This document shows positions 3,676 to 60,016 of a stretch of DNA of 60,875 nucleotides, one piece after another. Source of the stretch: a virus (lineage: Duplodnaviria > Caudoviricetes); the IMG/VR virus record IMGVR_UViG_3300043395_000730, positions 1 to 60,875 of that record; one strand, given 5' to 3'. The translations under genes were made by a program, and so were the position numbers. Position 1 is the first letter of the stretch. Each line of letters opens with the position of its first letter. The notes beneath the pieces are model-generated. The model searched no databases. It saw only the letters and a program-made list of their open reading frames with translations, and had not been told where the DNA came from.

Positions 3676-3677
3676 TT

Positions 3678-3962
3678 TGTGTTAAGTTTTGGGGTTTTGT
3701 GTTGACTTTATTACGACTTTGTGTTAACTTTTTCTAGTGTTTATAAGGAAAGTGTTAACTTTACAACTTTTTTCTATTTTTTAAAAAAAAAGTAATATAT
3801 ATATATAGATATAGTAGTAGTAGTAGTGTAGTATTTTTTTTCTACCAGTACGTACTAAAAGTCGTAAAGTTAACACTAAAATGGTTAATTGACTGATAAT
3901 GTGTAAGTTAGGTCGAAAAAAGTCAACACAAACTTAACATAAAGTCAACACAGGTTAACACA
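3678..3962. repeat. Inverted array of 11-bp iteron-like repeats around an AT-rich core; candidate replication origin
   Basis: TGTGTTRACTT-like units at 3678, 3698, 3720, 3751; reverse-complement units at 3867, 3920, 3931, 3942, 3953. Confidence 0.75.
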
Positions 3963-5496: not shown

Positions 5497-5844
5497 TTAA
5501 AATGTTGTATCGGGACTTGAATATCCGTAATTCTCTTTATCTTTAATCTCGTATTCTTGGTTTTCTCTTATAAAGAAAACAAATCCATTTTGTAGTTCAA
5601 TCAATCTGCCACGCTCAACTAATATAACATGGTTGGTATTTATAACTAAGTCTCTTTTATTAATTGTTTTGATACTCATAAAATTTGAATCTAAATTTAG
5701 ATTTTGTTTGGTAAAAAAGATATCCGTTTGATTTTGCGAAGTTATCCCCGTTACTGGCATAAATATAGTTATCTTACTAACATTATTGTGCTCATTTACT
5801 TTTAAGTTTTCCATTACTTTTGATTCTACTCTAATTACTCTCAT
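5497..5844 (-). CDS. Hypothetical early protein
   Basis: AGAAATCATG start context shared with neighbours. Confidence 0.65.
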   Translation of the reverse strand: MRVIRVESKVMENLKVNEHNNVSKITIFMPVTGITSQNQTDIFFTKQNLNLDSNFMSIKTINKRDLVINTNHVILVERGRLIELQNGFVFFIRENQEYEIKDKENYGYSSPDTTF

Positions 5845-5856
5845 GATTTCTAGTTG

Positions 5857-6063
5857 TTAAATTGAACATTTGTTTATCTCTCCTAAGTAGAAGTCATACC
5901 AATCGTTAAATCGGTCTTGTATCTCTTCGGTATATGTTAACACTTCAGCGTTTATGTCTTGGTACATATCATCCTCATTGTTGATGATATCTCCCGACTC
6001 TTGAAATGTTCTGATATGAGCTAACTCACTAGCTAACTCAAGCACGTTGATTGTTGTTTCCAT
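5857..6063 (-). CDS. Hypothetical acidic early protein
   Basis: 68 aa; AGAAACCATG start context. Confidence 0.65.
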   Translation of the reverse strand: METTINVLELASELAHIRTFQESGDIINNEDDMYQDINAEVLTYTEEIQDRFNDWYDFYLGEINKCSI

Positions 6064-6068
6064 GGTTT

Positions 6069-6281
6069 CTATTTTTCAGTTAAATTTTCACATGTAGCGT
6101 AGTCATATATCTGCTCAAATATTTTCTCTACTATGTATTCATTTGTTAGCGCATCGTATAAAATACCTTGAGCTGTTTCGTCATTACATTCAAATCTATC
6201 TTGAACGTCTTGAATTGTCCATAAGTTATCTACAAAATAACCTGCATCTCTTAATACTTGTTTTGCTTGTTGTACTGTCAT
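6069..6281 (-). CDS. Hypothetical early protein immediately downstream of hammerhead 1
   Basis: 70 aa; AGAAATCATG start context. Confidence 0.7.
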   Translation of the reverse strand: MTVQQAKQVLRDAGYFVDNLWTIQDVQDRFECNDETAQGILYDALTNEYIVEKIFEQIYDYATCENLTEK

Positions 6282-6299
6282 GATTTCTATTTTTTAAAT

Positions 6300-6356
6300 G
6301 GTTAAGACGGCACTTTGCCAGTGCCGTTTCGGTCAGTTAGACCTCGTCAGTTAACC
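6300..6356 (-). ncRNA. Type I hammerhead ribozyme 1
   Basis: GGTTAA-CTGACGA-GGTC(TAACT)GACC-GAAAC-GGCAC(TGGCAAA)GTGCC-GTC^TTAACC: full catalytic core and three paired stems. Confidence 0.93.
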
Positions 6357-6594
6357 TTGATTTCTTGAACCTAATCAAGTGACCTTCTTGGTAGTTTAAA
6401 AGGTCGTCTATCCTATCTCTTGGTATGGTAATCTTACCATGGATTGGATGGTTGATTTCGTTGATGCCAACGAATTGCTTGTTGCGAATCAATTGCTCTC
6501 GAACTGATAGTCGTCTTGTAGTTCCACTCGTCTCGTTGAAACCTACGTTTATTTTACCTGTTTTCATATGGTTAAAATTAATGTGCGTTACCAA
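6337..6594 (-). CDS. Hypothetical early protein (true start probably MKTGKINV); 3' end overlaps hammerhead 1
   Basis: ORF track; TAA stop lies in ribozyme loop II. Confidence 0.6.
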   Translation of the reverse strand: MVTHINFNHMKTGKINVGFNETSGTTRRLSVREQLIRNKQFVGINEINHPIHGKITIPRDRIDDLLNYQEGHLIRFKKSRLTDEV

Positions 6595-6617
6595 GTCGCA
6601 CCCCTTGTTTTGTTATT

Positions 6618-6893
6618 TTACGCGAAAATCTCGCCTTTCATCTTTTTATACATAAAGCATTTCTCAAATCTTGAAGGAATCAAATTAAATAAATCAATTC
6701 TCTCTTGCTTCATCTCGTTTCCAAATCTCGCCATCAAGCGTTGATGCCAATTTTCTTGAGTTTCTTTTGACCTATTAAACGGATTTCCTTCCTCTGCAAA
6801 CTTAGAGCAATACTTGTAATAAACATCAGAGTAGATGTAACCTTGAATGTCCATCATATTTGATGCGTTTTCGATTTTTTCTATTGTTTTCAT
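6618..6893 (-). CDS. Hypothetical early protein
   Basis: 91 aa; AGAAATCATG start context. Confidence 0.65.
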   Translation of the reverse strand: MKTIEKIENASNMMDIQGYIYSDVYYKYCSKFAEEGNPFNRSKETQENWHQRLMARFGNEMKQERIDLFNLIPSRFEKCFMYKKMKGEIFA

Positions 6894-6898
6894 GATTT

Positions 6899-7039
6899 CT
6901 ATTTATTATATACCTCATCCAATTGGTAGCCGTAACGCTTCTGCATGTAAGCTACATAGTTATTAAAATGTTGTTCGTTCTCAAAGTCCTTCGTAATGAT
7001 TATCTGCTCTCTACGATGGTTAAAAAATACTAGTATCAT
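6899..7039 (-). CDS. Small ORF, 46 aa (MILVFFNHRREQIIITKDF...)
   Basis: Translated by hand; ATGA overlap with the upstream small ORF. Confidence 0.55.
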   Translation of the reverse strand: MILVFFNHRREQIIITKDFENEQHFNNYVAYMQKRYGYQLDEVYNK

Positions 7040-7146
7040 CGCGCTCTGAATGGAATTAATAATCTCTTAGTCTTAACTAATGTTCCGTTTAGAAAGAATC
7101 CCCATACCTCGAAGTTCCCCTCAATTCTTAAAATTTTTGTGCTCAT
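7036..7146 (-). CDS. Small ORF, 36 aa (MSTKILRIEGNFEVWGFF...) downstream of hammerhead 2
   Basis: Translated by hand; TAACCATG start context. Confidence 0.55.
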   Translation of the reverse strand: MSTKILRIEGNFEVWGFFLNGTLVKTKRLLIPFRAR

Positions 7147-7163
7147 GGTTATTAAATTAAATT

Positions 7164-7222
7164 GGTTAAGACGCGTACTGGCAAAGTCCGCGTTTCGTCC
7201 ATTAAGGACTCGTCAGTTAACC
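7164..7222 (-). ncRNA. Type I hammerhead ribozyme 2
   Basis: GGTTAA-CTGACGA-GTCC(TTAAT)GGAC-GAAAC-GCGGAC(TTTGCCA)GTACGC-GTC^TTAACC; one mismatch in stem III. Confidence 0.92.
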
Positions 7223-7548
7223 TAGTAAAAGTATCCTTGATACTCACATCTTGAAGGCTCTTCATTTCTCCATGTCCACTCGTCTGAGTTTTCAACGATA
7301 TTTGGGAATATCCAATCACCATTGCTGAATGATATCTTTATCCCTTCATCTCGTGTTGATTTGCCGTTCATCTCAGCTACTAACTCGTAATAGTCCTTAC
7401 CCCCAAAATCACCATATCCGTTGTACTCATGCTCTACCCAAGTGTTTCCCTTGTTGTCCATTAGTACTACCTTCATAGTGTCCATTGAAGAATGAATGTT
7501 AGCAATTGACTTGTTTGTGTCTTGTGTTTTAAAACTAAAGAATCCCAT
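7222..7548 (-). CDS. Hypothetical phage protein
   Basis: MGFFSFKTQDT...YNGYGDFGGKDYYEL...QGYFY; stop abuts hammerhead 2. Confidence 0.75.
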   Translation of the reverse strand: MGFFSFKTQDTNKSIANIHSSMDTMKVVLMDNKGNTWVEHEYNGYGDFGGKDYYELVAEMNGKSTRDEGIKISFSNGDWIFPNIVENSDEWTWRNEEPSRCEYQGYFY

Positions 7549-7553
7549 GACGT

Positions 7554-7934
7554 TTAAATTTTAAAGATTTTTACCCCGTTAGTTACTATTAAATCGAATG
7601 TTTGTTTATCTACGTTACTTCCGTTCAAAGAGAAGAATGGGTTTACTCTTGGATTGTAAGATATCTCGTCTCCGTTCACATTAGACAACTCAACAATCTC
7701 GTATCTCTCACAAGATATCCAAGCACATCTCTCCTTGTGTATCTCACCCTTGTTAATCTTCTCAGCTCTTGTGCTAGAATTGTGTAAGTAGCATCCGTAC
7801 ATAACAATCATATGAGTAGAAGGGTTAACCAAGATATCTTTGCTACCCGATTTTATTTTAGACTTGCTTTCCAATTCGTGTATCTGCAAAAAGCCTTTGT
7901 TTACTGCTCCTAAATTTCTTCTTACTCCAAACAT
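7554..7934 (-). CDS. Hypothetical early protein downstream of hammerhead 3
   Basis: 126 aa; ISYNPR motif. Confidence 0.7.
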   Translation of the reverse strand: MFGVRRNLGAVNKGFLQIHELESKSKIKSGSKDILVNPSTHMIVMYGCYLHNSSTRAEKINKGEIHKERCAWISCERYEIVELSNVNGDEISYNPRVNPFFSLNGSNVDKQTFDLIVTNGVKIFKI

Positions 7935-7952
7935 GAGTTCTAAATTTTAAAT

Positions 7953-8009
7953 GGTTAAGACGACATCTTTTGAATGTCGTTTCGACTATTGAAGTCTCAT
8001 CAGTTAACC
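7953..8009 (-). ncRNA. Type I hammerhead ribozyme 3
   Basis: GGTTAA-CTGATGA-GAC(TTCAATA)GTC-GAAAC-GACAT(TCAAAAG)ATGTC-GTC^TTAACC. Confidence 0.93.
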
Positions 8010-8122
8010 TAAATGTAAATCGGTGGAACGTGCCCTGTTACGAGTTGATAGATGGCATATGAAATACCGAATATAACTCCAAACGCTAAACTGCTTGTCC
8101 AAACTGCAAATACTACTTTCAT
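8009..8122 (-). CDS. Small membrane peptide, 37 aa (MKVVFAVWTSSLAFGVIFGISYAIYQLVTGHVPPIYI)
   Basis: Translated by hand; single hydrophobic helix; stop abuts hammerhead 3. Confidence 0.6.
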   Translation of the reverse strand: MKVVFAVWTSSLAFGVIFGISYAIYQLVTGHVPPIYI

Positions 8123-8145
8123 GGCTATAAATTTAAATGGTTAGT

Positions 8146-8192
8146 GCCGTGCTGAGTTTCGCTCTCAGTAAATGACTCATAGTCAACACGGC
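8146..8192 (-). ncRNA. Minimal tRNA-like element (acceptor-like stem, one hairpin, T-arm-like hairpin)
   Basis: GCCGTG-T-TGACT(ATG)AGTCA-TTTA-CTGAG(AGCGAAA)CTCAG-CACGGC, followed by the same TAACCATTTAAA leader as the hammerheads. Confidence 0.6.
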
Positions 8193-9145
8193 TAAGTTTT
8201 TTTTCTTGGTGGAAGTATGGTTTAACGCGCTATACCAAAAACGAATACCGAATCACCCTCGGTAGGGGGCACTACCACCCTCAGATTTTTCGCGTCCTTC
8301 CTTTGGTTATGAATTTTCACGGCTTTTTCGACTTCTTGACTTTGAGTATGGCGCATCACTGCGGTTTATCTCTGCTTCAATCTCCTGTAAGCTTCAGTGC
8401 CGATATTAATACCCTCGGAGGGGGAGTGGCTCTTTGCTCAACGGGTCAGCCTATCCCGTGCGGTGTATTTTATAGTGCTATCGCTTTCGCACCTCGCTTT
8501 ATTAGACTCGCGGTCTCAGTCCAACTATGTGACCACGTTTGGTCGTTGATTCTGAAACAAAGTAACGGCAACTGATTGGATTAATAACAAACTTTTTGCT
8601 ATACGTTTTTAAAAATACGTGTTTATACGTATAAGGATCTAAGTGTTTATACGTAGTGATGACACAATGAGAGAGCTAGTTTATGACTGGCAAAACCTTA
8701 TTGGTATTTGGATTGATGTGAATAACATATAAATTGCAATAAATTCATTTGGGGATTTGTTTACATAGGTGTTCCAACCCCTACCCTCCAATCAATCGCT
8801 CTGAAACGTAGAACGGACGGTCGATTGGTCGATTGGTCTGCAGTTCTATTTAACATAATACATGTTATAGTACAAGTTGTGTGGGCAAATTTAAGGGTGG
8901 ATGAATTGGTCTCAGATAATAACCACCACCCCACCCCTACGCACAAGCACACCCACCCCTACACACGTGCGCGTAGCGTACATGCAGGCAGGCAGGCAGG
9001 TCGCTAGGCAAAAAGCCAAAAAGTCCGACCGAACTTTCCAAAATGCATACCCCCATGTCGATTTTCAAGTCGTTTCGGTCGATCGGGCTGGAGCGCCAGA
9101 TGGGGGTATTACCCAAAAATTCAGTATATTTACCAAAAAATATAT

Positions 9146-10945: not shown

Positions 10946-10968
10946 GCCCTCCAATCGGAGGGTTTTTT
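10946..10968 (+). terminator. Rho-independent terminator
   Basis: CCCTCC-AATC-GGAGGG followed by TTTTTT. Confidence 0.8.
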
Positions 10969-10980
10969 GTTATTTATTAT

Positions 10981-10988
10981 TATATTTG
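10981..10988 (+). promoter_or_regulatory. Bacteroidota-type -7 promoter element upstream of groEL
   Basis: TATATTTG matches TAnnTTTG. Confidence 0.7.
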
Positions 10989-11005
10989 TGTCAAAATATA
11001 ATAAA

Positions 11006-12574
11006 ATGGTAGTAAAACATGTTCATTTAGGCCAAGAAGGCCAACAAAAGCTCAAAAAAGGCATCAAGACGATCGCTGGAGCAGTCAAAAGTACATTAGG
11101 TGCGCGAGGGCGCACGGTACTAATAGAGTCAGAGCACCATGTGGGTGGTATAACAGTAACAAAGGACGGTGTAACGGTCGCTAAGTCGATAAACTTGTTT
11201 GATCCGACTGAGAACTTGGCTGTTATTATGATGCGCCAGGCTGCTGAGAAGACAGCAACGGTTGCTGGTGACGGTACAACCACATCTATAGTATTGGCTG
11301 AGGCTCTTATCAACTCTTCTGACGTACACTTATCTGACACAGACAACGTGACTGAGGTTATAAGAGAGATAAACGACCTAACAAAGGACGTTGTGGCGTA
11401 TTTAGACAAGAAAAGTAAAAAGGTAAAGGGTAAAAAGTTGGTTGATGTAGCCACTATAAGCGCAAACAACGACAGAGAGATCGGTAAGATGATCGCTAGT
11501 GCGTTCAACGAGGTTGACGTTGTTACTGTTGAGAACAGTATGACAAGCAACACATATGTCGAGATAATAAAAGGTATGAAGATCGACCGTGGAATGACGT
11601 CACCTTACTTTATCACAGACCAAAAGAAGCAAGAGTGTGTTCTTGACAACCCATACGTGTTGATATGCGATCACGAGATAAATAACTTGATATCTATCGA
11701 GAGTATATTAAAGCACTGCGTTATGAACCAAAAGCCGTTATTGATTATTGGTACGTTAGGCCAGAACGCTATGAACACATTAAACTTAAACGTGGCTAAG
11801 GGGCAGATCAAGGCGTGTAACATTCAGCCACCATCGTTTGGGTACCGCACAAAGGACCTTATGGAGGACATAGCTATCGCTACAGGCGGTACGTTCTTCT
11901 CTGAGTCTACTGGTGACGATTTGTCATTAATAACTGTAGCTGACCTAGGTCGTGCGAACCGTATTGTTGTGAGTAAGGGTATGACGGTATTTATGCCAAA
12001 CGCTGAGAGGGCTGATGCTATCGACACACAAGTTAGTCAGCTAAAGGACTCTAGATCTGAGATGTCATCCGACAAGGAGTTGCTTGACTTTACGAACGAG
12101 CGTATTGCAAACCTATCTGGCGGTGTTGGTGTTATATATGTTGGTGCCTTAAGTGACATTGAGCAGAAGGAGAAGAGAGATCGTATTGACGACGCTGTGT
12201 GTGCTGTAACTGCTGCACTAGAGGAGGGTATACTTCCAGGTGGAGGTATAGCGCTAGTTGACGCTGCATCATTCACACTACGTGGAGACAGTACTGCTTG
12301 TAAGATAATGCGTGACACTGTGATCGCTCCGTTCTATCAGATATTAATTAACGCAGGTAAGGACCCAGAGGAGATAAAGGCTAATATGTTGCCAATAGAG
12401 AACGAGGGGTATGACGTTAAGAACGAGCAGTACGGTGACATGTTAAAGCTTGGCATCATTGATCCAGCGAAAGTTACAAAGAACGCACTGTTAAACGCAG
12501 TGTCTGTAGCTACTACTATAATGAGCACAAATGCAATAATAACAAATGTAAGAGCAGATGAGAGTATTAAATAA
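11006..12574 (+). CDS. groEL: Phage-encoded chaperonin GroEL (Cpn60)
   Basis: AVKSTLG, VTKDGVTVAK, AGDGTTT, GGG and GIIDPAKV motifs; start moved to ATG 11006 after the promoter; no GGM tail. Confidence 0.95.
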   Translation: MVVKHVHLGQEGQQKLKKGIKTIAGAVKSTLGARGRTVLIESEHHVGGITVTKDGVTVAKSINLFDPTENLAVIMMRQAAEKTATVAGDGTTTSIVLAEALINSSDVHLSDTDNVTEVIREINDLTKDVVAYLDKKSKKVKGKKLVDVATISANNDREIGKMIASAFNEVDVVTVENSMTSNTYVEIIKGMKIDRGMTSPYFITDQKKQECVLDNPYVLICDHEINNLISIESILKHCVMNQKPLLIIGTLGQNAMNTLNLNVAKGQIKACNIQPPSFGYRTKDLMEDIAIATGGTFFSESTGDDLSLITVADLGRANRIVVSKGMTVFMPNAERADAIDTQVSQLKDSRSEMSSDKELLDFTNERIANLSGGVGVIYVGALSDIEQKEKRDRIDDAVCAVTAALEEGILPGGGIALVDAASFTLRGDSTACKIMRDTVIAPFYQILINAGKDPEEIKANMLPIENEGYDVKNEQYGDMLKLGIIDPAKVTKNALLNAVSVATTIMSTNAIITNVRADESIK

Positions 12575-38127: not shown

Positions 38128-41100
38128 ATGAACGATAAATTACAACAACTTTATAATCTATACAAGAGTAAAGGTTTAATTAATACTACAGATTTTAATA
38201 CATTCGCTTCTGCAAACAGTCAGCAAATCCAACAACTATATAATCTTGGAAAGAAAAATGGCCTGTTTAATACTACAGATCTTAATACATTTAGTTCTGC
38301 ATTTAGTCCTCAACAAAAATGGAGACAAGTAACTGAGAAGGAAAGTGCAGGTAGATTGAATTACAGAAAAGATGATTTCAGAACTTGGGACATAGTAGAA
38401 GAGACTCAGAAGGGAATGACCAAGGAGGAGAGAAAGAAAACTGGGTTTGATTATACGCCAGAACAAATAGCTGCTGGTAAAAAAGCTGTTGCTATGGAAG
38501 AGGCTCCAGTTATTGAATACTCTGACCTTAAACTGAGAAGAGGTAAGGATGGCGTTTTCTACAAGGTAGAAGGTAATAATTGGTACGAGGTGGCATTTCC
38601 TAGAGATATGTCAAAAAATATTATAAACGAAAGTGTAGTAAGTCTTGAGGGCTCTGATCTTTATAAAATAAATGATCCTAAAAAAGTAGAGAGCTTAAAC
38701 ATTGAGTTTGGCGAAAAAGTAAAATTACCTAATGCTGGTTTTGATACCGATCAAAAATTAATCAAGTCTGGCATAGATACAAAAATACCATCTGTTCTAA
38801 ACAAAGCAGTCAAACCAGAGGATGATCCGTATGATGTTTTTGGAGGATGGGACGATAATACTAGAGGTCTTAGATTTAGAAAGGACGATTATTCTAATGT
38901 TTGGCTGCAAATCAAACCAGGTGTTGATTCAGGATGGTCTGTAGTTACAGAAACCATGGCTAAAGAATTAAACAAGCGTTATGGTGGTAAGTATGGTTCT
39001 GTGCCTAAACAAGCTGAGAACTTGACTGATTACCAGATATTAAACAAGACGTACGGACAAGAAGGTGGTTCTGGAGTCTTAAAAAGAGAACTACTTCCAG
39101 ATGGAGAGCCTACTTTTGGACTTCCGAAATCAGTAGAGAATGCAGGTTGGTTTCAAACACTTTACCCTCAGACAATGATGGGTCAAGTTGTAAATGCTCA
39201 AGAGGCGAGAAGAAGAGGTATGACATCTTTTGATGACAAGGTACATAGATTCGTATCGAATAATAATATAGCTAGACTTGAAGAAGAAGAGGCTGTAAAA
39301 ATGCTTACAAATGAGTTCGGTAGATATGGTTTTGAGTTTATAGAATCTGGAGTTAATGACGAGATGATCGTAAGAACAAAAGATGGCTTACGTGAAGTAG
39401 TAATAAATCTTGATACTGATGATCTAGGAGAAAATATAAGACTTCAAGATTTCTTAATAGTTAATATGGACCCATCTGCTTACGAGGCAGGTGATCAAAA
39501 ATACGCAGAGCTTATAAATAGAGACAGACGTCTCATTTATTCTAATAATGGTAGCAACAGTGCATCTCTTTATAAAGACCTAAAAGAGTTATTTAACGAT
39601 GAGGACTATAAAATATGGGCTCAAAATTTACCTTACGGTGAACTAGAACAAGAGGTAAACTATAGGATAGGTGAGTATAGAAGCTTAATGAATAAACCTG
39701 GAGTTAATAGCTCTGAAGTATTTAAAGATATGGAGACGTTTAAAAAATCTCCTATGTATCAACAATATCAAAAAAATAAGAAAGAGGCATTTGAGCTCGA
39801 AAGAATGAAAATGCAGTCACTGTATGATGAAGTTAGATTAGATCCAGGACAAAATTCAAGAGCTAGACAAAAGGTTAGAATGTTCTTGTCTGATAAATAT
39901 TTAGACAAAGCAAAAACTGAGTACAATGCAATGCTAAATGATATCAATCAGTCTGCTAAATTTTTAAAGACTAGATATGATGAATATCATAATGAACTTC
40001 AGAAATTAAACACGTCAAACTTAACGCCAGAACAAATAAGAGTTAAGAAAGAACAACTTGACAAAATGGCGTTACAGCTGGATGTAGATCGATCTAACTT
40101 AATTAGAAGACAAAAGGCCGTTACAACTGAAGCCAAGCAGCTTGAGTATTTAACAGGTAAGTATGTTGTTGACGTGGCTAAAGAAGGTGGATTTATTGGT
40201 GGGTTGATGAATAGCTTCTCAGACGGTATATCAAAAATGATAAAGACAGGAGATGTTGTTGGAAGGTTGCAAGCAGAGACAAAGGGTTCTCAGATTGCAG
40301 ACAACATGACAGAAGAGGAAAAGAGATACTATAAAACAAAAGGATATTCATTAGAAGAGATTAAAATAGCAGAGGCTAATAAAGCTTGGAAGGAATCAAA
40401 AGAAGATCTTTCTAACAGGATGAAGTCCGCTATTGGTGATCTAGCTACAACTAAACAGTACCAACAGTCTGAAGATAGAGGTATTGTTAGTAAAGCATTG
40501 TTTGGTCTTGCAGAATCTCTTCCAGCAATGGCTACATCATTTATTAATCCATACGTTGGTTTTGGATCATTGTCAGCTCAAGCATATTCATCTTTAGAGG
40601 ATGAGATGTTAAATGATCCAGATTTTGAAACAACGTCACTTACAGAGATGAACTTAATAGCATTACCATATGCTATGGCTATGGGAGCCTTGGAAAAGAT
40701 TGGTCTTAGTTCAGCTATGTCTAAAAACCCTCTTGCTAAGTCTCTTATAATGAAGTCTATACAAGGGGCTGTTAAAAAGACAACAGGTAAAGGATCAGCA
40801 GAACTTTTACAAAATGTACTAGACAAAGAGATCAAGTCGAATATGGCTAAGTTTGGAATAAGGATAGTCGGTGGTGCACTAACCGAGGCTGAAACTGGGG
40901 CTACTCAGTCATTGGTACTTGATATTGGATATAAGAGCTTGATCAACGAAATAAAAAAAGACGATAGACTAGCAAGCGAACTAACTGGAGGTGAGTTTTT
41001 TGATACCCCAGATAGCTTTATGGATGGTCTAAAGATGGTTATAGAGGATGGTATAGCTGAAGGTATTGGCGGTATGGTTATGAGTGGATTTGGATCTATG

Positions 41101-44100
41101 TCTCAAAAGGTTATAAATGGAAATATATCTCTTTATGATAATGAAGATGTTGATTTTTTAAAAACTGTTTCAACTGACAACGAGCTAAGAAAGATGATTG
41201 TGATAAAACTTAAGAGCGATATGCTTACTGGTAAAATTACAAAGTCTGAAGCTGAGAAACAATTGAACGCTCTTGATAAGGTTGGTGCTATATTTAATGC
41301 TATGCCTGACAACCTAAGTGTTGAGGACCAAGTTAAGTCTGTAAACCTTATGTCTGAAAAGCAAAGACTTGAAAAAGAAATTGACGGCAAGGATCAATCT
41401 CTTGTTGCCGCTCAAAAGGAAAGAATAACAGAGATTGATAACGAACTACAAAAAATTAGTAAAGATGCCTTTCAAAAGCAAGCAACAGGTGAAGTTCCTG
41501 TACAGCCAGAAGCCAGAGTTGGCGAAGAAGTGGAGGGAAGAAAACCCGAAACAAAACTTGAAGAAGTTACCAAAAAAGGTCAAGAAGGTGTAGTACAAAC
41601 ACAAGTTCCTAGAAAAAAAGGTTGGCAAAATAGTGTTGTTAAAAAAGAAGAATCAACTACTCCATCTGGAGATAAAGTAACTACATATAAGGCTTATGCT
41701 GTAAATGAAAATGGCAAAGAGACTAATATGGGAACAGGTATCTTAACTACTATAGGAGAAATTGCACCTTTAGTAAAAGGAACTGAAGGTGAATTAATGT
41801 TTTATGATGAAGATGGTAATTTAAAAGAAGATCCTAATGCTGAACTTTATATAACAAAAACAATAGAGGGAACCAATCAAGATGGAAGCTATCAACAGAG
41901 GGTTACAGTAGTTGCTAAAGGAGATTTAGAATTTAATGGAAGGATACAAGCTGATTTTACTACAAATAAAAATGTTGTAGTAGGCGAATCATCTTATAAA
42001 TCTAATTTAACAACTAAACAACAACAAGAAGTAACAATAGATAAACCTGTTATTGCTACAAATACAACGGCCGAACTTGATAGAGTTAAGTCTGTTGATA
42101 TGGAGACTGAAGATGGTGCTACGTTTAATATAGACGGAACTAAGTACGAAGGTGGTGGTTTGGTTGTTCCTATTGTTAGTGAGAACACTACTGTTGAGGA
42201 GATCACTCCAGAGATGATATCTGACTTTGTTGAAAAACATTCAAGCAAAATTGGAGATCAAAATACAGTTAAGGTTGGTATATATAAATTCCCTAACAGT
42301 AACAAGGTATCGATAGACCTAAATATCGTTGCTCCAGAGTCATCAAGACAGCAAGCCATTGAGTTTGCAAAAGCTGCTGATCAAGAGTCTCTGTTTGATT
42401 TATCTACATTTGAGAATGTAAAGACTGGCGGTACTGGAGTTAATCCTACACAATTTACTGACGAACAATTTAAAGAGATAGCTAAAGCTCTTAACGAAGG
42501 AAGAACTCCTAGTTTTGCAGCACCTACGCAACAAAACCTAGTAACACTTGAGAATGTAGAAGAGGTTGCAGACAAAAGAACAGCCACTGCCATTAAGTTG
42601 GTATTGAACGCTCTTCCTGACGTTAAGATATATATTCACAAGACAAACGAAGAGTACTCTGCCGCAATAGGTGAAGAGGCTGAAGCTGGAGACAGAGGAG
42701 CATACGATACACAAGAAGGAGCTATACACATTAATTTAGCAGCTGGAGGTAACGCTCAAACTGTTTTCCATGAGGCTATCCACCATGCATTACTAAAGAA
42801 AGGTATGGACAGTGGAGCTATACTTGATTTGGCTAATGGTCTTAATAGAATAATTACTGACAAGAAGTTAAAGAAAAGGTTAAGTGATTTCATATCTCAA
42901 TATGAAACATCTGACCAAGCTGAAGAGTATTTGTCAGAACTAGGGGCCATAATGGCTGAAGCTGAGATCGAACTAACTACAACAAAGTTCAATCAGTTTA
43001 AAGCGCTTATCGCTAGAATATTCCAAAAGTTAGGACTACCTAAATCTATGGTTCCTTTCTTGAATGCTATGAATTCAGAGAACGCTGTTGACTTTATTAA
43101 TAGTTTGACTAAATCTTTGAGGACTGGTGAAAACATAATGACTGACGGTTTTCAATCAACTATTAATCCAACTAACAAAATAAAGAAACAGGTTGAAGTT
43201 AAAGAAGGATATAAGCTTTCTTATGTTAAACAGTCTGATATAATAGATATACAATCATTAATATCTGACATTGCTTCAAATGATCAAAATGTTTGGTTCT
43301 GGGTTGCTGATCAACTTGGTAGAGGATTTGTTGAGGATGATGTTATAGATGGAAAACACTATTTAGATGCTGGGCCTTCATTTGCTCTTGATCCTAAAAA
43401 TAGAGAGAGAGGTATAATATGGGCGTCTGGAGCTAATCCAAGGACACTTCAAAATAATATAAATAAAAGTGATTATATATTCATTATAAGTGGATCGCCT
43501 CAAAAATCAAAGTTATTTAATAAGACCGTATCAAATCTAGTAAGATCTAGAATAGAAAAAAGTGTTGATTTCGATACATTTAAAAAATCACTTATAGAGG
43601 CTAATGCTCCAAAAGATATAACGTCAATACTTGAAAAATATAACAGTTATGATGATTTATTTAATGGTCCAGATAGAAAAGCATTTTTAATAGCTATAGG
43701 CAATCAAGCAAATAAGAAGGCTACTAAATCTAAACAATTACTTGAATCATATAATGCTTTTGTTGATTATGATTCATTGAGAGATGATTTCTATAGAGAG
43801 AATGGATTTGAAATGGGTGATATAATGCTTGTATTGAAGCCTACAGGTGTTGGTGAAAAATCAGATCATTCGACATATGAGAATAATATTTTAGGTGAAG
43901 TTGTAGGTGTTCCAGATTCTATAATAAATTCTTATGATATCCTTCCAGAAGAAACTAGAAATAAATACAAAGAAGATATAAGCAGAGTTCAACAACAACA
44001 AGTTGTGGCTCCTTATGGTATGGGTGTTAGTAAAGTTAAAAAACACAAAGGTGAAAAAATAACTGCACCAGTAGCTGGAAACAAGTTGTTCAATGAGCCT

Positions 44101-47100
44101 TTAAAGGATGCTGAAAATATAGCTAGATCTTACATGCAATCTATCGGTATGGAATACGTGCCAGTAGAAAAGATAACAAAACTAGATGAAGATCTTTCAA
44201 AAAGAATATCTGACGCTTACGATCAGATGGAAAATAATCCAAACGATCCGAAGGTAAAGGCTGCTTATGAGGCTATGGCTAAGGAAACATTAGATCAGTA
44301 TGACGCTATAGTTAAAGAAGGCTACAATGTTGAGATAAATAATAACGAGCCTTACTCCAACTCTGAGGCTATGATAAAAGACCTTAAGGATAATAAGAGG
44401 ATGAAAATATTCTCTACAGAATCTGGTTTTGGAGATGAGCCTATAACTGAAGAGCAGAGATCTGAAAATTTATTATTAAAAGACTCTGGAAGAAAGGATG
44501 TAAATGGTGAGACTTTATTGATCAATGACGTGTTTAGATTTGTGCATGACTTCTTTGGTCACGCCAAACTAGGCAACAGTTTTGGTCCAGTAGGAGAAGA
44601 GAATGCTTGGAGAGTTCACTCTGAGATGTATTCTCCAGAAGCTAGAAAGGCTATGACATCTGAGACAAGAGGTCAAAATAGCTGGGTTAATTTTAGTGGT
44701 GTAAATGACGCTGCATTCAAGAAGAGAGATAAGGCTAGAGAACTTCGTAAAGAAGGTAAGACAGAAGAGGCTGATAGATTGGTAGGTGAGGTATATGAGG
44801 AGATGAAATTTGCCGATCAAAAGGTTGGCATATTGCCAGATTTTGCTATTGAAGAGGGGACTAGGTTTAAAAAACAGAAAGATAATACTGGATATAGATC
44901 TGGGGATTTAATAAAAAAAGCAGAAACTAAAGATAAATTCGAAGGAAGTGATAGAAGCACTGGTCATTTTGGCACTGGATTTTATTTTTTTGGAACTAAA
45001 AACCAAGCAGATCAATATGGTGAACGAGCTACAAGTACTATTGATTTAGATGGATATAATTTAGCAAAAGGAACTATTGAACTTCATGATTTATTAAAAG
45101 ATATCAATAACAATTCTATAGGTAAAAATAAAAATATAGATAAATTAAAATCTAGAATTGAAAATTTATTAAATTACCTAGGTAAATCAGAAGTTACCAA
45201 ATTAAGTCGCGATTATTCTGAACTAGAATTTAAATCTTATGTTCAAAGTGAAATAAATCAAAAAAATAAAATAGAATCAATAATAAATGAAATAAATAAT
45301 AATAATGTTGATTCTCCATCAACAGTAGTTATGAAATCGTTGGGATTTGATGGTGTAGATTCAAGAGGTACAGATTTAGATAATGCTCAATATGGAAGTG
45401 TAGTATATTCAATAAAACAATTCAAAAAACAAAAACCAACATCCAAACAAGAGGCCATCCAAAAGGCCAAGGATAAGTACGAACTGTCTGTAGAGAAGAG
45501 AGGTAATTCTCACGAGCAAGGCGTAGCCGCTGCTCTTGGTGACTTGCAAAAGTCTAATTGGTTTGCAAACGCTGACGATACAGCTAGAGAAGATGCAGTT
45601 AGAGAGATCAAGGCTTTCTTTGGTGAGAAGATTAAGAAGGCTCCATCTGTTGCTAAGATTTTAGGTAAACCAAAACCAGAGACGCAAACAAAAACCGTTG
45701 ATGCCTTACGAAAAGAATTCTTTACTGCTTGGAACAAAGCGTCAAGAGAAGCAAAGGCCGATCTAAATTCCAAAAGAAAAGCCATCGGAGCTATCATCAA
45801 GTCAATGGTCCGATCTGGCAAAATAACTACCAAACAAGCAGCCGTTATAACAGACAGGGCTAGCAGTATAAATCTTGAGAACCCAGTAATTGTACAAAGA
45901 TTCTTGGACTACGTTAGTAAGGTATTTGCTGACGCTAACTATCAAGAGAAGTTAAGCAACGCTTTCTCTACTAGAAAAGCGATAAGAAGATTAACTAAGT
46001 CAAACAACCAAGCAGAGGTTATAGGGATGGCTAAGGCATTCCTAAATATAGACCCATCAATGGTTGAAGACATAGACACATACAACGAGATAGCTGAGTC
46101 AATCAAAAATGCTATGGCTCCATCTGTTGTAAGAGGAGAGCAAGTTAAGTTCAAGCAACCAGCCAATATAGCTGACGTGAATGAATACACGATGGAAGAG
46201 CTGTCAAAACAAGAGGAAATTAAAAAGGACCAATTGTTGGCTGAGTATGACTACCTTAAGGATGCTGGTTTGATATCTAAAGACATGACTCTAAATGAGA
46301 TAAGAAAGATCATAGAGGATATGAAGTCTACAGATACTGATATCAACGATGACGTTAAAGACTTTGTTGAGAGAAGACTAGATATGATGCTTGGTATTGT
46401 AGAGTCTATTATTAGAACTGGAGTCAATCCAATCACTGGAGAACCTATGGAGATATCTGATAAAAACAAAGATATCCTAAAAGCTATAATGAAGATGGAT
46501 CTAAAAGAACTTGATACAAGAAGCTTGATCTATCTATCTGAATCTGTAGATAACTTCCTAAATAACGGAATAACAAGCGGTCTTGAGGCTAATGTACAGT
46601 CATATGTTGGAGCTATGAAAGTTAAGGCTCTTGTAAATGCTGGCGTTAAATCTGTTGGTATAAAAACAAAAGCTTCTAAGATAGCATCTACTGAAATACT
46701 TAGCATACCTTTATTATTTGAAAAATTATTTAGAGGTACTACTATTGGTACTAGAATAATGAGTGATATGGGATTGTTGGATATGGTTAACGGCAAAAAT
46801 AAAGCTGAACTTATATACAACAAAATACTTGAATCGTACACAAAGCAAGATTTCTACGGAAAGGACTTTATGACTCAACAGAACATCATAGAAAGAGGTA
46901 TGCTTGCATATCTTATGAGAAATGTTAATGGTGATAACGCTCAAGTTAAAGCAGAACTAAACAGGAGAATTGACGCTATATCTGAGAGTATTAAACAACT
47001 AAAAGAAGGAAATAGCGATGAGCAGAAACTAGCTGAAATGTATGAGAATGCATTCTCTAAGTTAAAAGTAAATTCTAGAGACATTGATATCATAAGAGCT

Positions 47101-59818: not shown

Positions 59819-59890
59819 CTGCCTAGAGTTTTTACCTATGTGGAGGCTAACCTCAGAACCCTAACTGCTGTCCACCATGAACAAATTTGT

Positions 59891-60016
59891 TGTCAGGACA
59901 GGATTCGAACCTGTATCTATGATGGGATTTCTCCTAAGTATGAGGTGTGCTTACGATTATATTTTCAAATCTTTATCACTCCATCCTATAGCGTCTACCA
60001 ATTCCGCCACCTGACT
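59891..60016 (-). ncRNA. tRNA-like RNA with Leu/Ser-type D and T arms but no canonical anticodon arm
   Basis: GTCAGG/CCTGAC acceptor, TGGCGGAATTGGTAGACGC D arm, ACAGGTTCGAATCCTGT T arm, about 75-nt interior. Confidence 0.7.

What the first reader, a model, noticed from the sequence alone, without database searches (positions are those of the whole stretch)
6300..8192. Hammerhead ribozyme array punctuating the early operon at a fixed distance from start codons
Seen in sequence: three complete type I hammerheads on the coding (-) strand at 6300-6356, 7164-7222 and 7953-8009. They share stem I (GGTTAA/TTAACC) and the core (CTGAYGA, GAAAC, GTC) but have different, covarying stems II and III. Each begins at or over the upstream stop codon. 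Predicted cuts (6306/6305, 7170/7169, 7959/7958) fall 24, 23 and 24 nt before the next ATG and leave nearly identical TTAACCA(A)TTTAA leaders. Established: hammerheads leave 5'-OH and 2',3'-cyclic phosphate ends and are reported from phage and metagenomic DNA, mostly without known function. Inference: the phage cuts its early transcript, without protein help, into standard mRNA units (about 789 and 864 nt between sites). This would parallel RNase III processing of T7 early RNA, and cleavage may expose the ribosome-loading region held in stem I.
Basis: partly seen in the sequence, partly recalled or inferred. Interest (0 to 1): 0.92.

Follow-up and report, generated by a model that had tools for sequence, protein, structure and literature searches.

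The report
Hammerhead ribozymes punctuating a phage operon
Three self-cutting hammerhead RNAs sit between small genes at the head of a Flavobacterium-type phage's non-structural operon, each about 24 bases before the next start codon; the layout has been known in phages since 2011, but these copies belong to a widespread, uncatalogued subfamily tied to a shared mRNA leader.

Summary
Three canonical type I hammerheads lie on the - strand at 6300-6356, 7164-7222 and 7953-8009. A covariance model built only from other contigs finds exactly these three (64-68 bits; next best 12 bits). A close relative (L077) keeps all three, with compensatory changes in stems II and III.

The window is a complete 60.9-kb crAss-muzzle-bearing podophage. 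Its nearest cultured relatives infect Flavobacteriia, and its genes lack Shine-Dalgarno sites.

The same stem I variant occurs in at least 119 other viral contigs. In those loci the cut lies 16-30 nt before the next ORF start in 134 of 153 copies, and the upstream stop codon usually lies inside the ribozyme.

A new point is that the leader motif YUAACCAW also occurs at that distance without a hammerhead. In 12 cases, including window 8145-8192, a covarying tRNA-like element fills the slot instead. This supports processing that creates a defined 5' end.

Cleavage itself was not shown; the RNA runs were uninformative. Clustered phage hammerheads were described by Perreault et al. 2011, and this scan has found such arrays before on other DNA. 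Verdict: a genuine new member of a known kind, of moderate interest.

The parts
7953..8009 (-). Hammerhead HH3 (type I). Stem I is 8009-8004/7958-7953, the core is CUGAUGA, stem II is 4 bp with loop UCAAU, and stem III is 8 bp. The cut is 7959/7958. The TAG stop of the 37-aa ORF (8011-8009) overlaps the first G.
   Evidence: model R1 67.7 bits, E 6e-14; ortholog in L077 with compensatory changes
7164..7222 (-). Hammerhead HH2 (type I). The core is CUGACGA and the cut is 7170/7169. The TAG stop of the 108-aa ORF (7224-7222) overlaps the first G.
   Evidence: R1 63.6 bits, E 6e-13; the ortholog in L077 has a wholly different but paired stem III
6300..6356 (-). Hammerhead HH1 (type I). The core is CUGACGA and the cut is 6306/6305. 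The upstream ORF 6337-6567 ends at a TAA in loop II.
   Evidence: R1 66.7 bits, E 1e-13; compensatory changes in L077 and in a relative's contig in run X23 (table 3)
7935..7958 (-). 24-nt leader left by HH3 (UUAACCAUUUAAA...), followed by the ATG at 7934 of the 126-aa ORF
   Evidence: little predicted structure, -2.8 kcal/mol
7147..7169 (-). 23-nt leader left by HH2, followed by the ATG at 7146 of the 36-aa ORF
   Evidence: -0.8 kcal/mol. Of 8 homologues of this 36-aa gene in other loci, L077, L079, L054 and L069 have a hammerhead directly upstream by position; L012 and its duplicate L005 carry it over the called ORF start; L036's hammerhead lies downstream; L034's upstream region was not seen.
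6282..6305 (-). 24-nt leader left by HH1, followed by the ATG at 6281 of the 70-aa ORF
   Evidence: 0 kcal/mol
8145..8192 (-). Element in the fourth slot, which is not a hammerhead. It has a 6-bp closing stem (8192-8187/8151-8146), a hairpin at 8185-8173, a 5-bp hairpin with the 7-nt loop AGCGAAA (8168-8152), and one unpaired A (8145).
   Evidence: fold; not matched by R1; one change against L077 while homology breaks just upstream; 8-member family with compensatory changes at 10 of 15 pairs
8123..8144 (-). 22-nt leader CUAACCAUUUAAA... after the tRNA-like element, followed by the ATG at 8122 of the 37-aa ORF. It is in the same register as the hammerhead-made leaders.
7222..7934 (-). Unit between HH3 and HH2: ORFs of 126 aa (7934-7554) and 108 aa (7548-7222), function unknown. 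A relative (L077) has about 147 unrelated bases here.
6337..7146 (-). Unit between HH2 and HH1: ORFs of 36, 46, 91 and 76 aa, function unknown. The 91-aa gene and its 50-nt spacer are absent from L077.

Best explanation
These are three functional type I hammerhead self-cleaving ribozymes in the leftward, non-structural (probably early) transcript of a 60.9-kb podophage of a Flavobacteriia-like host that does not use Shine-Dalgarno sites. As the RNA is made, each folds and cuts after C17 without protein help. The upstream RNA then ends in the stem II and stem III hairpins with a 2',3'-cyclic phosphate. The downstream RNA begins 5'-OH-UUAACCA(U/A)... with an unstructured, A/U-rich 23-24-nt leader before the start codon. 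The transcript is thereby split into separately translated and separately stable units: the 37-aa gene | 126+108 aa | 36+46+91+76 aa | 70 aa and onward. The cassette is very compact. The stop codon of the upstream gene lies inside or against the ribozyme, and stem I's 3' strand is the first six bases of a leader motif (YUAACCAW, about 22 nt before the ATG). Related phages also use this motif without a ribozyme, or behind a tRNA-like element. Shown here: the motif, the fold, covariation, orthology, spacing, and the alternative tRNA-like occupant of the slot. Inferred: cleavage in vivo, the end chemistry (established for hammerheads in general), early timing, and the benefit (a defined 5' end for fresh initiation, and unit-specific stability).
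For: Core and helices are intact. A model built from 25 hammerheads of other contigs finds exactly these three at 63.6-67.7 bits, with the next match at 12.3 bits. Covariation in that set is 0.58 against 0.12 for shuffles, with 0 of 500 shuffles as high and 11 of 16 pairs changed on both sides. The close relative L077 keeps three orthologous copies with compensatory changes in stems II and III, and one stem III is replaced by a different hairpin. The cut lies 16-30 nt before an ORF ATG in 134 of 153 distinct copies, against 292 of 3060 random positions (Fisher p 3e-104). The upstream stop codon starts at +3, +7, -2 or +17 relative to stem I in 98 of 153. The catalytic bases are invariant while the stems vary. 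Twelve distinct leaders without a hammerhead are preceded by an acceptor-like stem plus a T-loop-like hairpin, and all 12 begin C-UAACCA one base after the stem. The window's element belongs to a family with compensatory changes at 10 of 15 pairs. Only 2 of 50 ORFs of 100 aa or more have an SD-like core. All named hosts among 89 terminase relatives are Flavobacteriia. Perreault 2011 showed cleavage for three other tandem arrangements (PMC3088659, passages).
Against: There is no RNA evidence. The three RNA-labelled runs gave only contigs and did not cover the hammerhead units of this phage. No copy reaches any Rfam gathering score; the best are 27 and 25 bits against 56.3 for RF03152, and HH1 was not listed at E up to 10. 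Stem I is only 6 A/U-rich base pairs, and no known loop-loop contact was identified. Minimal hammerheads are slow at cellular Mg2+ (established knowledge). The elements are dispensable: a relative with a 67% identical terminase (MW202828.1) had no match at E up to 0.01, although the fast first look found no candidates at all, so this is weak, and clade members carry 1-3 copies. The leader motif stands at the same distance from the ATG without any hammerhead in 140 of 525 occurrences, so the leader does not need the ribozyme. Ribosomes terminating inside stem I or the core would unfold the ribozyme. The sequences were picked by a finder that demands pairing, so '100% paired' is partly by construction. 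Of 159 matches to a pattern that imposes no pairing, 122 form both stems, 21 more do so with one extra base after A9, and 16 do not by my rule.
Confidence: 0.7

Rival explanations
1. The cut matters mainly for the upstream RNA. The hammerhead body (the stable stem III hairpin plus a cyclic phosphate) acts as a 3'-end protector and insulator, and the spacing to the next ATG reflects only a compact genome.
For: Stem III is 5-14 bp, often capped by UUCG or GNRA-type loops (18 UUCG and 11 GUGA of 150). The upstream stop lies inside the ribozyme in most copies. In an unbiased sample of other type I phage hammerheads the spacing is loose, 16-30 nt in only 28 of 79.
Against: In this subfamily the spacing is tight (134 of 153). 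tRNA-like elements, whose processing also defines the downstream 5' end in the same register, occupy the same slot.
Confidence: 0.15
2. The units between two hammerheads are religated into circular RNAs. All copies share the same stem I, so the 5' end made by one cut can pair with the body of the next ribozyme on the same molecule.
For: Stem I is identical in all three copies. The reverse (ligation) reaction of hammerheads is established knowledge.
Against: Perreault et al. looked for circular or spliced products in other tandem arrays and found none (PMC3088659, passage). No back-joints appear, though cover there was almost nil. Some neighbouring copies in other loci carry variant stem I sequences (21 of 165).
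Confidence: 0.07
3. The hammerhead plus leader serves chiefly as a conserved linker at which small accessory gene cassettes are exchanged between phages by recombination.
For: Against L077, homology breaks at 7931 (the ATG after the HH3 leader), at 7226 (4 nt before HH2) and at 6273 (just after the ATG behind HH1). A relative in run X23 lacks exactly 6061-6278. Flanks of hammerhead junctions are discordant between loci in 167 of 210 pairs, against 536 of 815 for other gene junctions on the same strands (odds ratio 2.0).
Against: The baseline is already 66% discordant, and two of the five variable segments against L077 do not touch a hammerhead. The pairs are not independent. Shared sequence is only about 20 scattered bases because stems II and III differ. 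This does not explain the invariant catalytic core.
Confidence: 0.15
4. Cleavage is gated by translation. Because the upstream stop codon lies in stem I or the core, ribosomes on the upstream gene keep the ribozyme unfolded, so the cut reports upstream translation.
For: The stop codon overlaps the ribozyme in 100 of 153 copies (positions -2 to +17).
Against: This is purely positional, and overlap is also expected from genome compaction. It was not tested.
Confidence: 0.1
5. These are inactive relics or chance motifs.
For: No Rfam gathering-score match.
Against: 3 matches against 0.04 expected. E is about 1e-13 with an independent model. Compensatory changes occur in a close relative. The core is invariant across about 150 copies.
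Confidence: 0.03

Closest known systems
Clustered hammerhead ribozymes flanking genes in prophage and phage transcripts (Perreault et al. 2011, PMC3088659; passages read)
   Same: Several hammerheads on the coding strand flank single genes or short gene blocks. Processing of long phage RNAs into gene-length mRNAs was proposed, and three tandem arrangements cleaved in vitro.
   Different: Here all copies are type I, with one stem I variant, a conserved loop II (U-N-A-R-U), a stop codon inside the ribozyme and a tight spacing of about 22 nt to the ATG. The host group is Bacteroidota, which lacks SD sites. I could not see their supplementary alignments, which may already hold such sequences.
HHphage of haloviruses HF1/HF2 (discussed in PMC3088659, passage)
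   Same: A hammerhead lies a few nt (13) before the start codon of the first gene of an early polycistronic transcript, and the mapped 5' end is within 3 nt of the cut.
   Different: That is a core-variant hammerhead of an archaeal virus, present as a single copy.
RAGATH-1 hammerhead, Rfam RF03152
   Same: It is the best-scoring Rfam family. It is type I, with a short stem I ending ...UUA before CUGAUGA and a short stem II.
   Different: Scores are 27 and 25 bits against a gathering score of 56.3, and HH1 is not listed. The model's 5' hairpin aligns only at HH2 and lies outside the region conserved in L077.
RNase III processing of phage T7 early RNA (recalled, no call)
   Same: One early transcript is cut between genes into defined mRNAs.
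   Different: T7 uses a host protein enzyme and hairpin sites. Here the RNA cuts itself and leaves 5'-OH and cyclic-phosphate ends.
RiboJ-type synthetic ribozyme insulators (recalled, no call)
   Same: A self-cleaving hammerhead placed before the translation start gives every gene the same short 5' leader, whatever lies upstream.
   Different: RiboJ is an engineered part in E. coli with an SD site. This is a natural element in SD-less hosts.
t-elements (tRNA-like structures that set mRNA ends) in plant mitochondria (PMC1920247; search listing only)
   Same: For the fourth slot (8145-8192), a tRNA-like fold stands directly before an mRNA leader, which would let tRNA-processing enzymes define the mRNA end.
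   Different: The phage element is a 48-nt mini fold that ARAGORN does not call as a tRNA, and Rfam lists no tRNA match there at E up to 10. Processing was not tested.
[quoted passage not shown]
   Same: A type I hammerhead with a long helix III lies a few nt before an ORF, and the cut was proposed to serve translation.
   Different: Those are eukaryotic RNA viruses lacking the usual loop-loop contacts. Here the virus is a DNA phage with a conserved loop II.

Membership tests
Hammerhead ribozyme, type I | Conserved core C3 U4 G5 A6 N7 G8 A9 ... G12 A13 A14 ... H17 | tested here: met
   All three copies have it. This matches the criteria Perreault 2011 used (passage).
Hammerhead ribozyme, type I | Pairs next to the core: G10.1-C11.1, A15.1-U16.1, N1.1-N2.1 | tested here: met
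   G-C, A-U and U-A are present in all three copies.
Hammerhead ribozyme, type I | Three helices supported by covariation; stem I open, stems II and III capped | tested here: met
   (11 of 16 pairs changed on both sides, 0 of 500 shuffles as high; the sequences were preselected for pairing). One search shows compensatory changes in orthologs.
Hammerhead ribozyme, type I | Self-cleavage after position 17 | not testable with these tools
   The RNA runs were contigs without cover of these units.
Hammerhead ribozyme, type I | Tertiary contact between stems I and II for speed at low Mg2+ | tested here: inconclusive
   Loop II is conserved (U 134 of 134, A 121 of 134, U 124 of 134). An unpaired A stands 5' of stem I (147 of 147) and 3' of it (149 of 152). 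These features are also frequent in the unbiased sample. No known contact type was matched.
Rfam hammerhead families (RF00163, RF00008, RF02276, RF03152 and others) | Score at or above the curated gathering score | tested here: not met
   No hammerhead match in the whole window at gathering scores. The best sub-threshold scores are 27, 25 and 20 bits.
RAGATH-1 hammerhead (RF03152) | Extra 5' hairpin plus a type I core, as in the model | tested here: not met
   The hairpin aligns only at HH2 and lies upstream of the homology break with L077 at 7226.
Clustered phage hammerheads (Perreault 2011) | Two or more hammerheads on the coding strand flanking genes in a phage transcript | tested here: met
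   There are three copies within 1.7 kb on the strand of the ORFs. The window is a phage genome.
tRNA or tRNA-like element (for 8145-8192) | Recognised by tRNA models; acceptor stem stacked on a T arm with a 7-nt loop | tested here: inconclusive
   ARAGORN finds 0 genes, and Rfam lists no tRNA match in 5800-8700 at E up to 10. The shape (a 6-bp stem abutting a 5-bp hairpin with a 7-nt loop, then one free base) is present and covaries.

The most novel reading that the evidence does not exclude
In this group of Bacteroidota phages the functional unit is a standard 5'-terminal leader, YUAACCAW, about 22 nt before the ATG. Interchangeable RNA 'cutters' placed directly in front of it produce this end: a self-cleaving hammerhead, a mini tRNA-like fold cut by host tRNA-processing enzymes, and possibly half-hammerhead sites cut in trans. 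The defined 5' end would serve end-dependent ribosome loading in hosts that lack Shine-Dalgarno pairing. The conserved cutter-plus-leader joints would also act as exchange points for small early-gene cassettes.
Probability: 0.3. Interest if true: 0.8.

Novelty: new member of a known kind. Interest (0 to 1): 0.5.

Why it matters
The biological role of bacterial and phage hammerheads is still called unresolved in a 2019 review (PMC6765202, passage). This case adds several things:

- A large, sharply defined subfamily, present in at least 119 viral contigs, that current Rfam thresholds miss. In a cultured Flavobacterium phage record, a related hammerhead lies under a 'hypothetical protein' called on the opposite strand.
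- A quantitative link between the cut site and the start codon.
- A natural 'swap experiment', in which a tRNA-like element replaces the ribozyme before the same leader.
- A cultured system in which this could be tested: Flavobacterium sp. BAL314 with Elemovirus phages, which carry one hammerhead of the wider family (46 bits).

Together these make the 'defined 5' end' hypothesis directly testable. They also suggest a natural counterpart of synthetic ribozyme insulators for organisms without Shine-Dalgarno sites.

Tried and rejected
- **RNA evidence.** One search for runs and one laying were used. All four runs were contigs. Their only matches at 6326-6363 (X24) and 7977-8010 (X22, X24) are 30-38-nt hammerhead cores that run on into unlike sequence, so they come from other phages. 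There was no cover of the units at high identity, no ends and no joints that bear on cleavage, so nothing can be said either way.
- **Fourth element as a decayed hammerhead.** Rejected, because model R1 does not match it at E up to 10.
- **GTGTTGACT at 8182-8190 as a promoter.** The octamer occurs 6 times against 1.6 expected, but here it is part of the conserved fold. An RNA-library contig covers 8204-8533, upstream of it. The idea was dropped.
- **Hairpin in the 50-nt spacer 6568-6617.** No better than shuffles (z 0.56).
Not kept in the L077 orthologs, so probably chance.
- **'Stem I is conserved in sequence across phages'.** This was largely an effect of my first search pattern. In a sample taken without constraining stem I, only 4 of 86 well-formed type I copies have it.
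- **Function of the flanked genes.** Among 10 small ORFs, PHROGs gave one weak holin match (E 0.0067) and Pfam one sub-threshold match.
- **Host from genome contigs.** Only 6 loci matched. Three lie in short MAG contigs labelled Proteobacteria or Actinobacteria that may be misbinned.
- **My own misreading.** I first took hit H1 to lie near HH1, but its coordinates are relative to the query, and it is the GroEL gene. No conclusion used it.
- **Earlier notes by sequence.** Nothing found.
- **Literature.** Searches listed no paper whose title or abstract names this subfamily, its leader motif or the hammerhead/tRNA-like swap; I did not open the full texts of most.
Full report
**Observation.** Reading the - strand shows three complete type I hammerheads at the stated coordinates. 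Each has stem I GGUUAA/UUAACC, the core CUGAYGA, a 4-bp stem II with a 5-nt loop, GAA, a stem III that opens with A15.1-U16.1, then C17. The core pattern occurs 3 times, all on the - strand, against 0.04 expected; 0 of 100 shuffles reached 3. The same three are the only matches in the whole record, which is the window itself (60,875 bp, CheckV 100%). Each is the minimum-energy fold alone (-23.1, -17.5 and -15.4 kcal/mol; z -4.6, -1.9 and -2.6) and in 146-147 nt of native context. The cuts at 6306/6305, 7170/7169 and 7959/7958 lie 24, 23 and 24 nt before ATGs at 6281, 7146 and 7934. One detail needs correcting: HH1 does not begin at the stop codon, because the 76-aa ORF reads into it and stops in loop II.

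**Are they real hammerheads?** Rfam gives no hammerhead match at gathering scores. With loose thresholds only HH2 and HH3 appear, as RAGATH-1-hammerhead at 27 and 25 bits against 56.3. I therefore built an independent test.
- From these I took 25 equal-length copies, none from the window, aligned them without gaps and built model R1.
- With filters off, R1 finds exactly three matches in the window at 67.7, 66.7 and 63.6 bits (E about 1e-13). The other 14 matches at E up to 10 score 12.3 bits or less.
- On the 25 sequences, 11 of 16 pairs change on both sides, and covariation is 0.58 against 0.12 for shuffles (0 of 500 as high).
- Those sequences were preselected by a finder that demands pairing. 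The fairer figure comes from 159 matches to a pattern that imposes no pairing: 122 form both stems, 21 more do so with one extra base after A9 (18 of them U), and 16 do not by my rule.
- The strongest single piece is orthology. L077 is 87-92% identical in shared DNA and has three copies at the corresponding junctions. They show C-G to A-U and A-U to G-C changes in HH3, two compensatory pairs in stem II of each of HH2 and HH1, a G-C to A-U change in stem III of HH1, and a completely different but paired stem III in HH2.
- A relative's contig in run X23 shows four further compensatory pairs in HH1 (table 3).

**Context.** The + arm carries the terminase, portal, virion proteins, two crAss-muzzle domains and a 3702-aa ORF. 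The - arm carries small unknown ORFs, a PAPS-reductase-like gene and an exonuclease, and, past the record's start, the primase and helicase. The hammerheads lie in the first 2 kb of the - arm, so 'early' is an inference from layout. Terminase relatives in cultured phages number 89 records. All named hosts are Flavobacteriia: Flavobacterium 68, Cellulophaga 15, Tenacibaculum 2 and Maribacter 1; the best cultured match is 41.8% identical. Only 2 of 50 ORFs of 100 aa or more have an SD-like core, and the upstream regions are A-rich. The solid genome-contig hits are Bacteroidota. The flanked genes have no known function.

**Spacing and stops.** In the loci fetched with the GGUUAA pattern, a finder free in stem I found 165 copies in 1.19 Mb and none in shuffled sequence; 153 of them are non-identical.
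- The cut lies 16-30 nt before an ORF-opening ATG in 134 of 153, against 292 of 3060 random positions.
- The upstream stop starts at +3 (TAA inside stem I) in 46, at +7 (the TGA of CUGA) in 22, at -2 (TAG sharing the first G) in 21 and at +17 (loop II) in 9.
- An A precedes stem I in 147 of 147 and follows it in 149 of 152.
- Loop II reads U-N-A-R-U.
- After the cut the leaders are essentially unstructured (0 to -2.8 kcal/mol).

**Stem I and the leader.** A second scan that left stem I free gave 86 well-formed type I copies from 127 pattern starts. Only 4 have GGUUAA/UUAACC, and stem I otherwise varies freely. The apparent sequence conservation was therefore partly my pattern. In that sample the 16-30-nt spacing holds for only 28 of 79 (p 7.5e-16 against the subfamily), so tight spacing is a subfamily trait. 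The likely reason is that the motif NTAACCA[AT] also stands 16-30 nt before ORF ATGs where there is no hammerhead core within 85 nt. This is true of 140 of 525 such occurrences, with a peak at 20-24 nt, against 24 of 464 for the reverse-complement motif. Stem I's 3' strand thus doubles as the start of a leader with a role of its own.

**The tRNA-like occupant of the slot.** Twelve distinct hammerhead-less leaders follow an acceptor-like stem plus a T-loop-like hairpin, and all 12 start with C one base after the stem. One family includes window 8145-8192 and seven other loci; its loop is AGCGAWA, and 10 of 15 pairs show compensatory changes. Another family has a GGTTCGAG-type T arm (L090, L092, L106, L121). 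ARAGORN calls no tRNA in the 10 loci scanned, and Rfam gathering scores give no tRNA at any of these elements in 12 loci. If tRNA 3'-processing cuts after the free base, the product starts CUAACCA..., in the same register as the hammerhead product UUAACCA.... That step is inference.

**Mechanism.** I commit to co-transcriptional self-cleavage that splits the - arm transcript into units. Each unit has a protected 3' end and a standard, unstructured, SD-less leader. I put identity as hammerheads at about 0.95, cleavage in vivo at about 0.8, and this role at about 0.55-0.6.

**Against and limits.**
- No RNA ends were seen.
- No Rfam threshold is met.
- Stem I is short and no tertiary contact was identified.
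- The copies are dispensable. Five complete genomes of the clade (terminase 68-82% identical) carry 1, 3, 3, 1 and 3 copies, and MW202828.1 (67% identical) gave no match, though the first look found no candidates at all.
- Five larger contigs that carry the subfamily have terminases only 26-33% identical, so the element crosses phage groups.

**Cassette turnover.** Against L077, three of the ten homology breakpoints abut a hammerhead or its leader, and one abuts the tRNA-like element. Across loci, hammerhead junctions are discordant in 167 of 210 pairs, against 536 of 815 for control junctions. The pairs are not independent and the region as a whole is highly variable. I treat this as suggestive only.

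**Known or new.** Perreault et al. 2011 described clustered hammerheads flanking genes in prophages, proposed processing into gene-length mRNAs and showed cleavage for three arrays. A 2019 review repeats the idea and calls the purpose open. This scan has reported such arrays on other DNA. The finding is therefore a new member of a known kind. The subfamily definition, the embedded stops, the spacing statistics, the ribozyme-independent leader and the tRNA-like alternative are, as far as my searches show, not in the papers I could search.

Noticed in passing
window 8145-8192 (-), leader 8123-8144: A mini tRNA-like three-way fold stands before the first gene. It has one change against L077, while the sequence upstream of 8194 is unrelated. 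Seven further loci hold family members with compensatory changes (10 of 15 pairs), always followed by one free base and then CUAACCA.
   Followed up: partly
window 8204-8533: Contigs of a metatranscriptomic run (X22) match this non-coding stretch at 100% identity. One 143-nt piece (8204-8346) is flanked by what look like sequencing-adapter letters (my recall). DNA carry-over cannot be excluded. The stretch is not homologous in L077 (win 8195-8557 against L077 5732-6063).
   Followed up: partly
L109, L117, L060, L022, L025, L088 (positions listed): 21 of 147 hammerhead-less leaders are preceded by GUH. About 17 of these (my count by eye) read hairpin + GGUC or GGUGUC + UUAACCA, with no CUGANGA core within 85 nt.
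   Followed up: no
L031, L034, L054, L059, L073, L084, L095, L098 and others: 21 of 159 copies have one extra base (18 of them U) between A9 and G10.1. I recall a similar extra base in a viroid hammerhead, but I did not check this.
   Followed up: no
MT497017.1 17284-17350 (L251 about 5999-6060): The cultured Flavobacterium phage elemoA_7-9A carries one type I hammerhead of the wider family (46 bits), with its cut 28 nt before an ATG. The record annotates a 'hypothetical protein' on the opposite strand over it. An unannotated 21-codon ORF ends in a TAG that shares the first G of stem I.
   Followed up: partly
window 6309-6325 and 7181-7189: Loops III of HH1 and HH2 are complementary (GGCAA/UUGCC, with the same two closing pairs). 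This is not conserved in the L077 orthologs.
   Followed up: yes
window 3676-3954: An intergenic stretch with repeated GTGTTGAC/GTGTTAAC units in both orientations and A/T runs, possibly an origin or a binding array.
   Followed up: no
window 59890-60016 (-): Rfam matches tRNA at 34.3 bits with a 67-nt insert in place of the anticodon arm, while ARAGORN finds nothing. It is not followed by the TAACCA leader.
   Followed up: partly
window 6550-6886: The 91-aa gene and its 50-nt spacer are absent from L077 and from a contig in run X24. The spacer ends ...UUUUAACCAU directly before the next ATG.
   Followed up: partly
window 10967-12574 and 38128-49236: The phage encodes a GroEL-type chaperonin (Pfam 178 bits) and a 3702-aa ORF with no Pfam match.
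   Followed up: no
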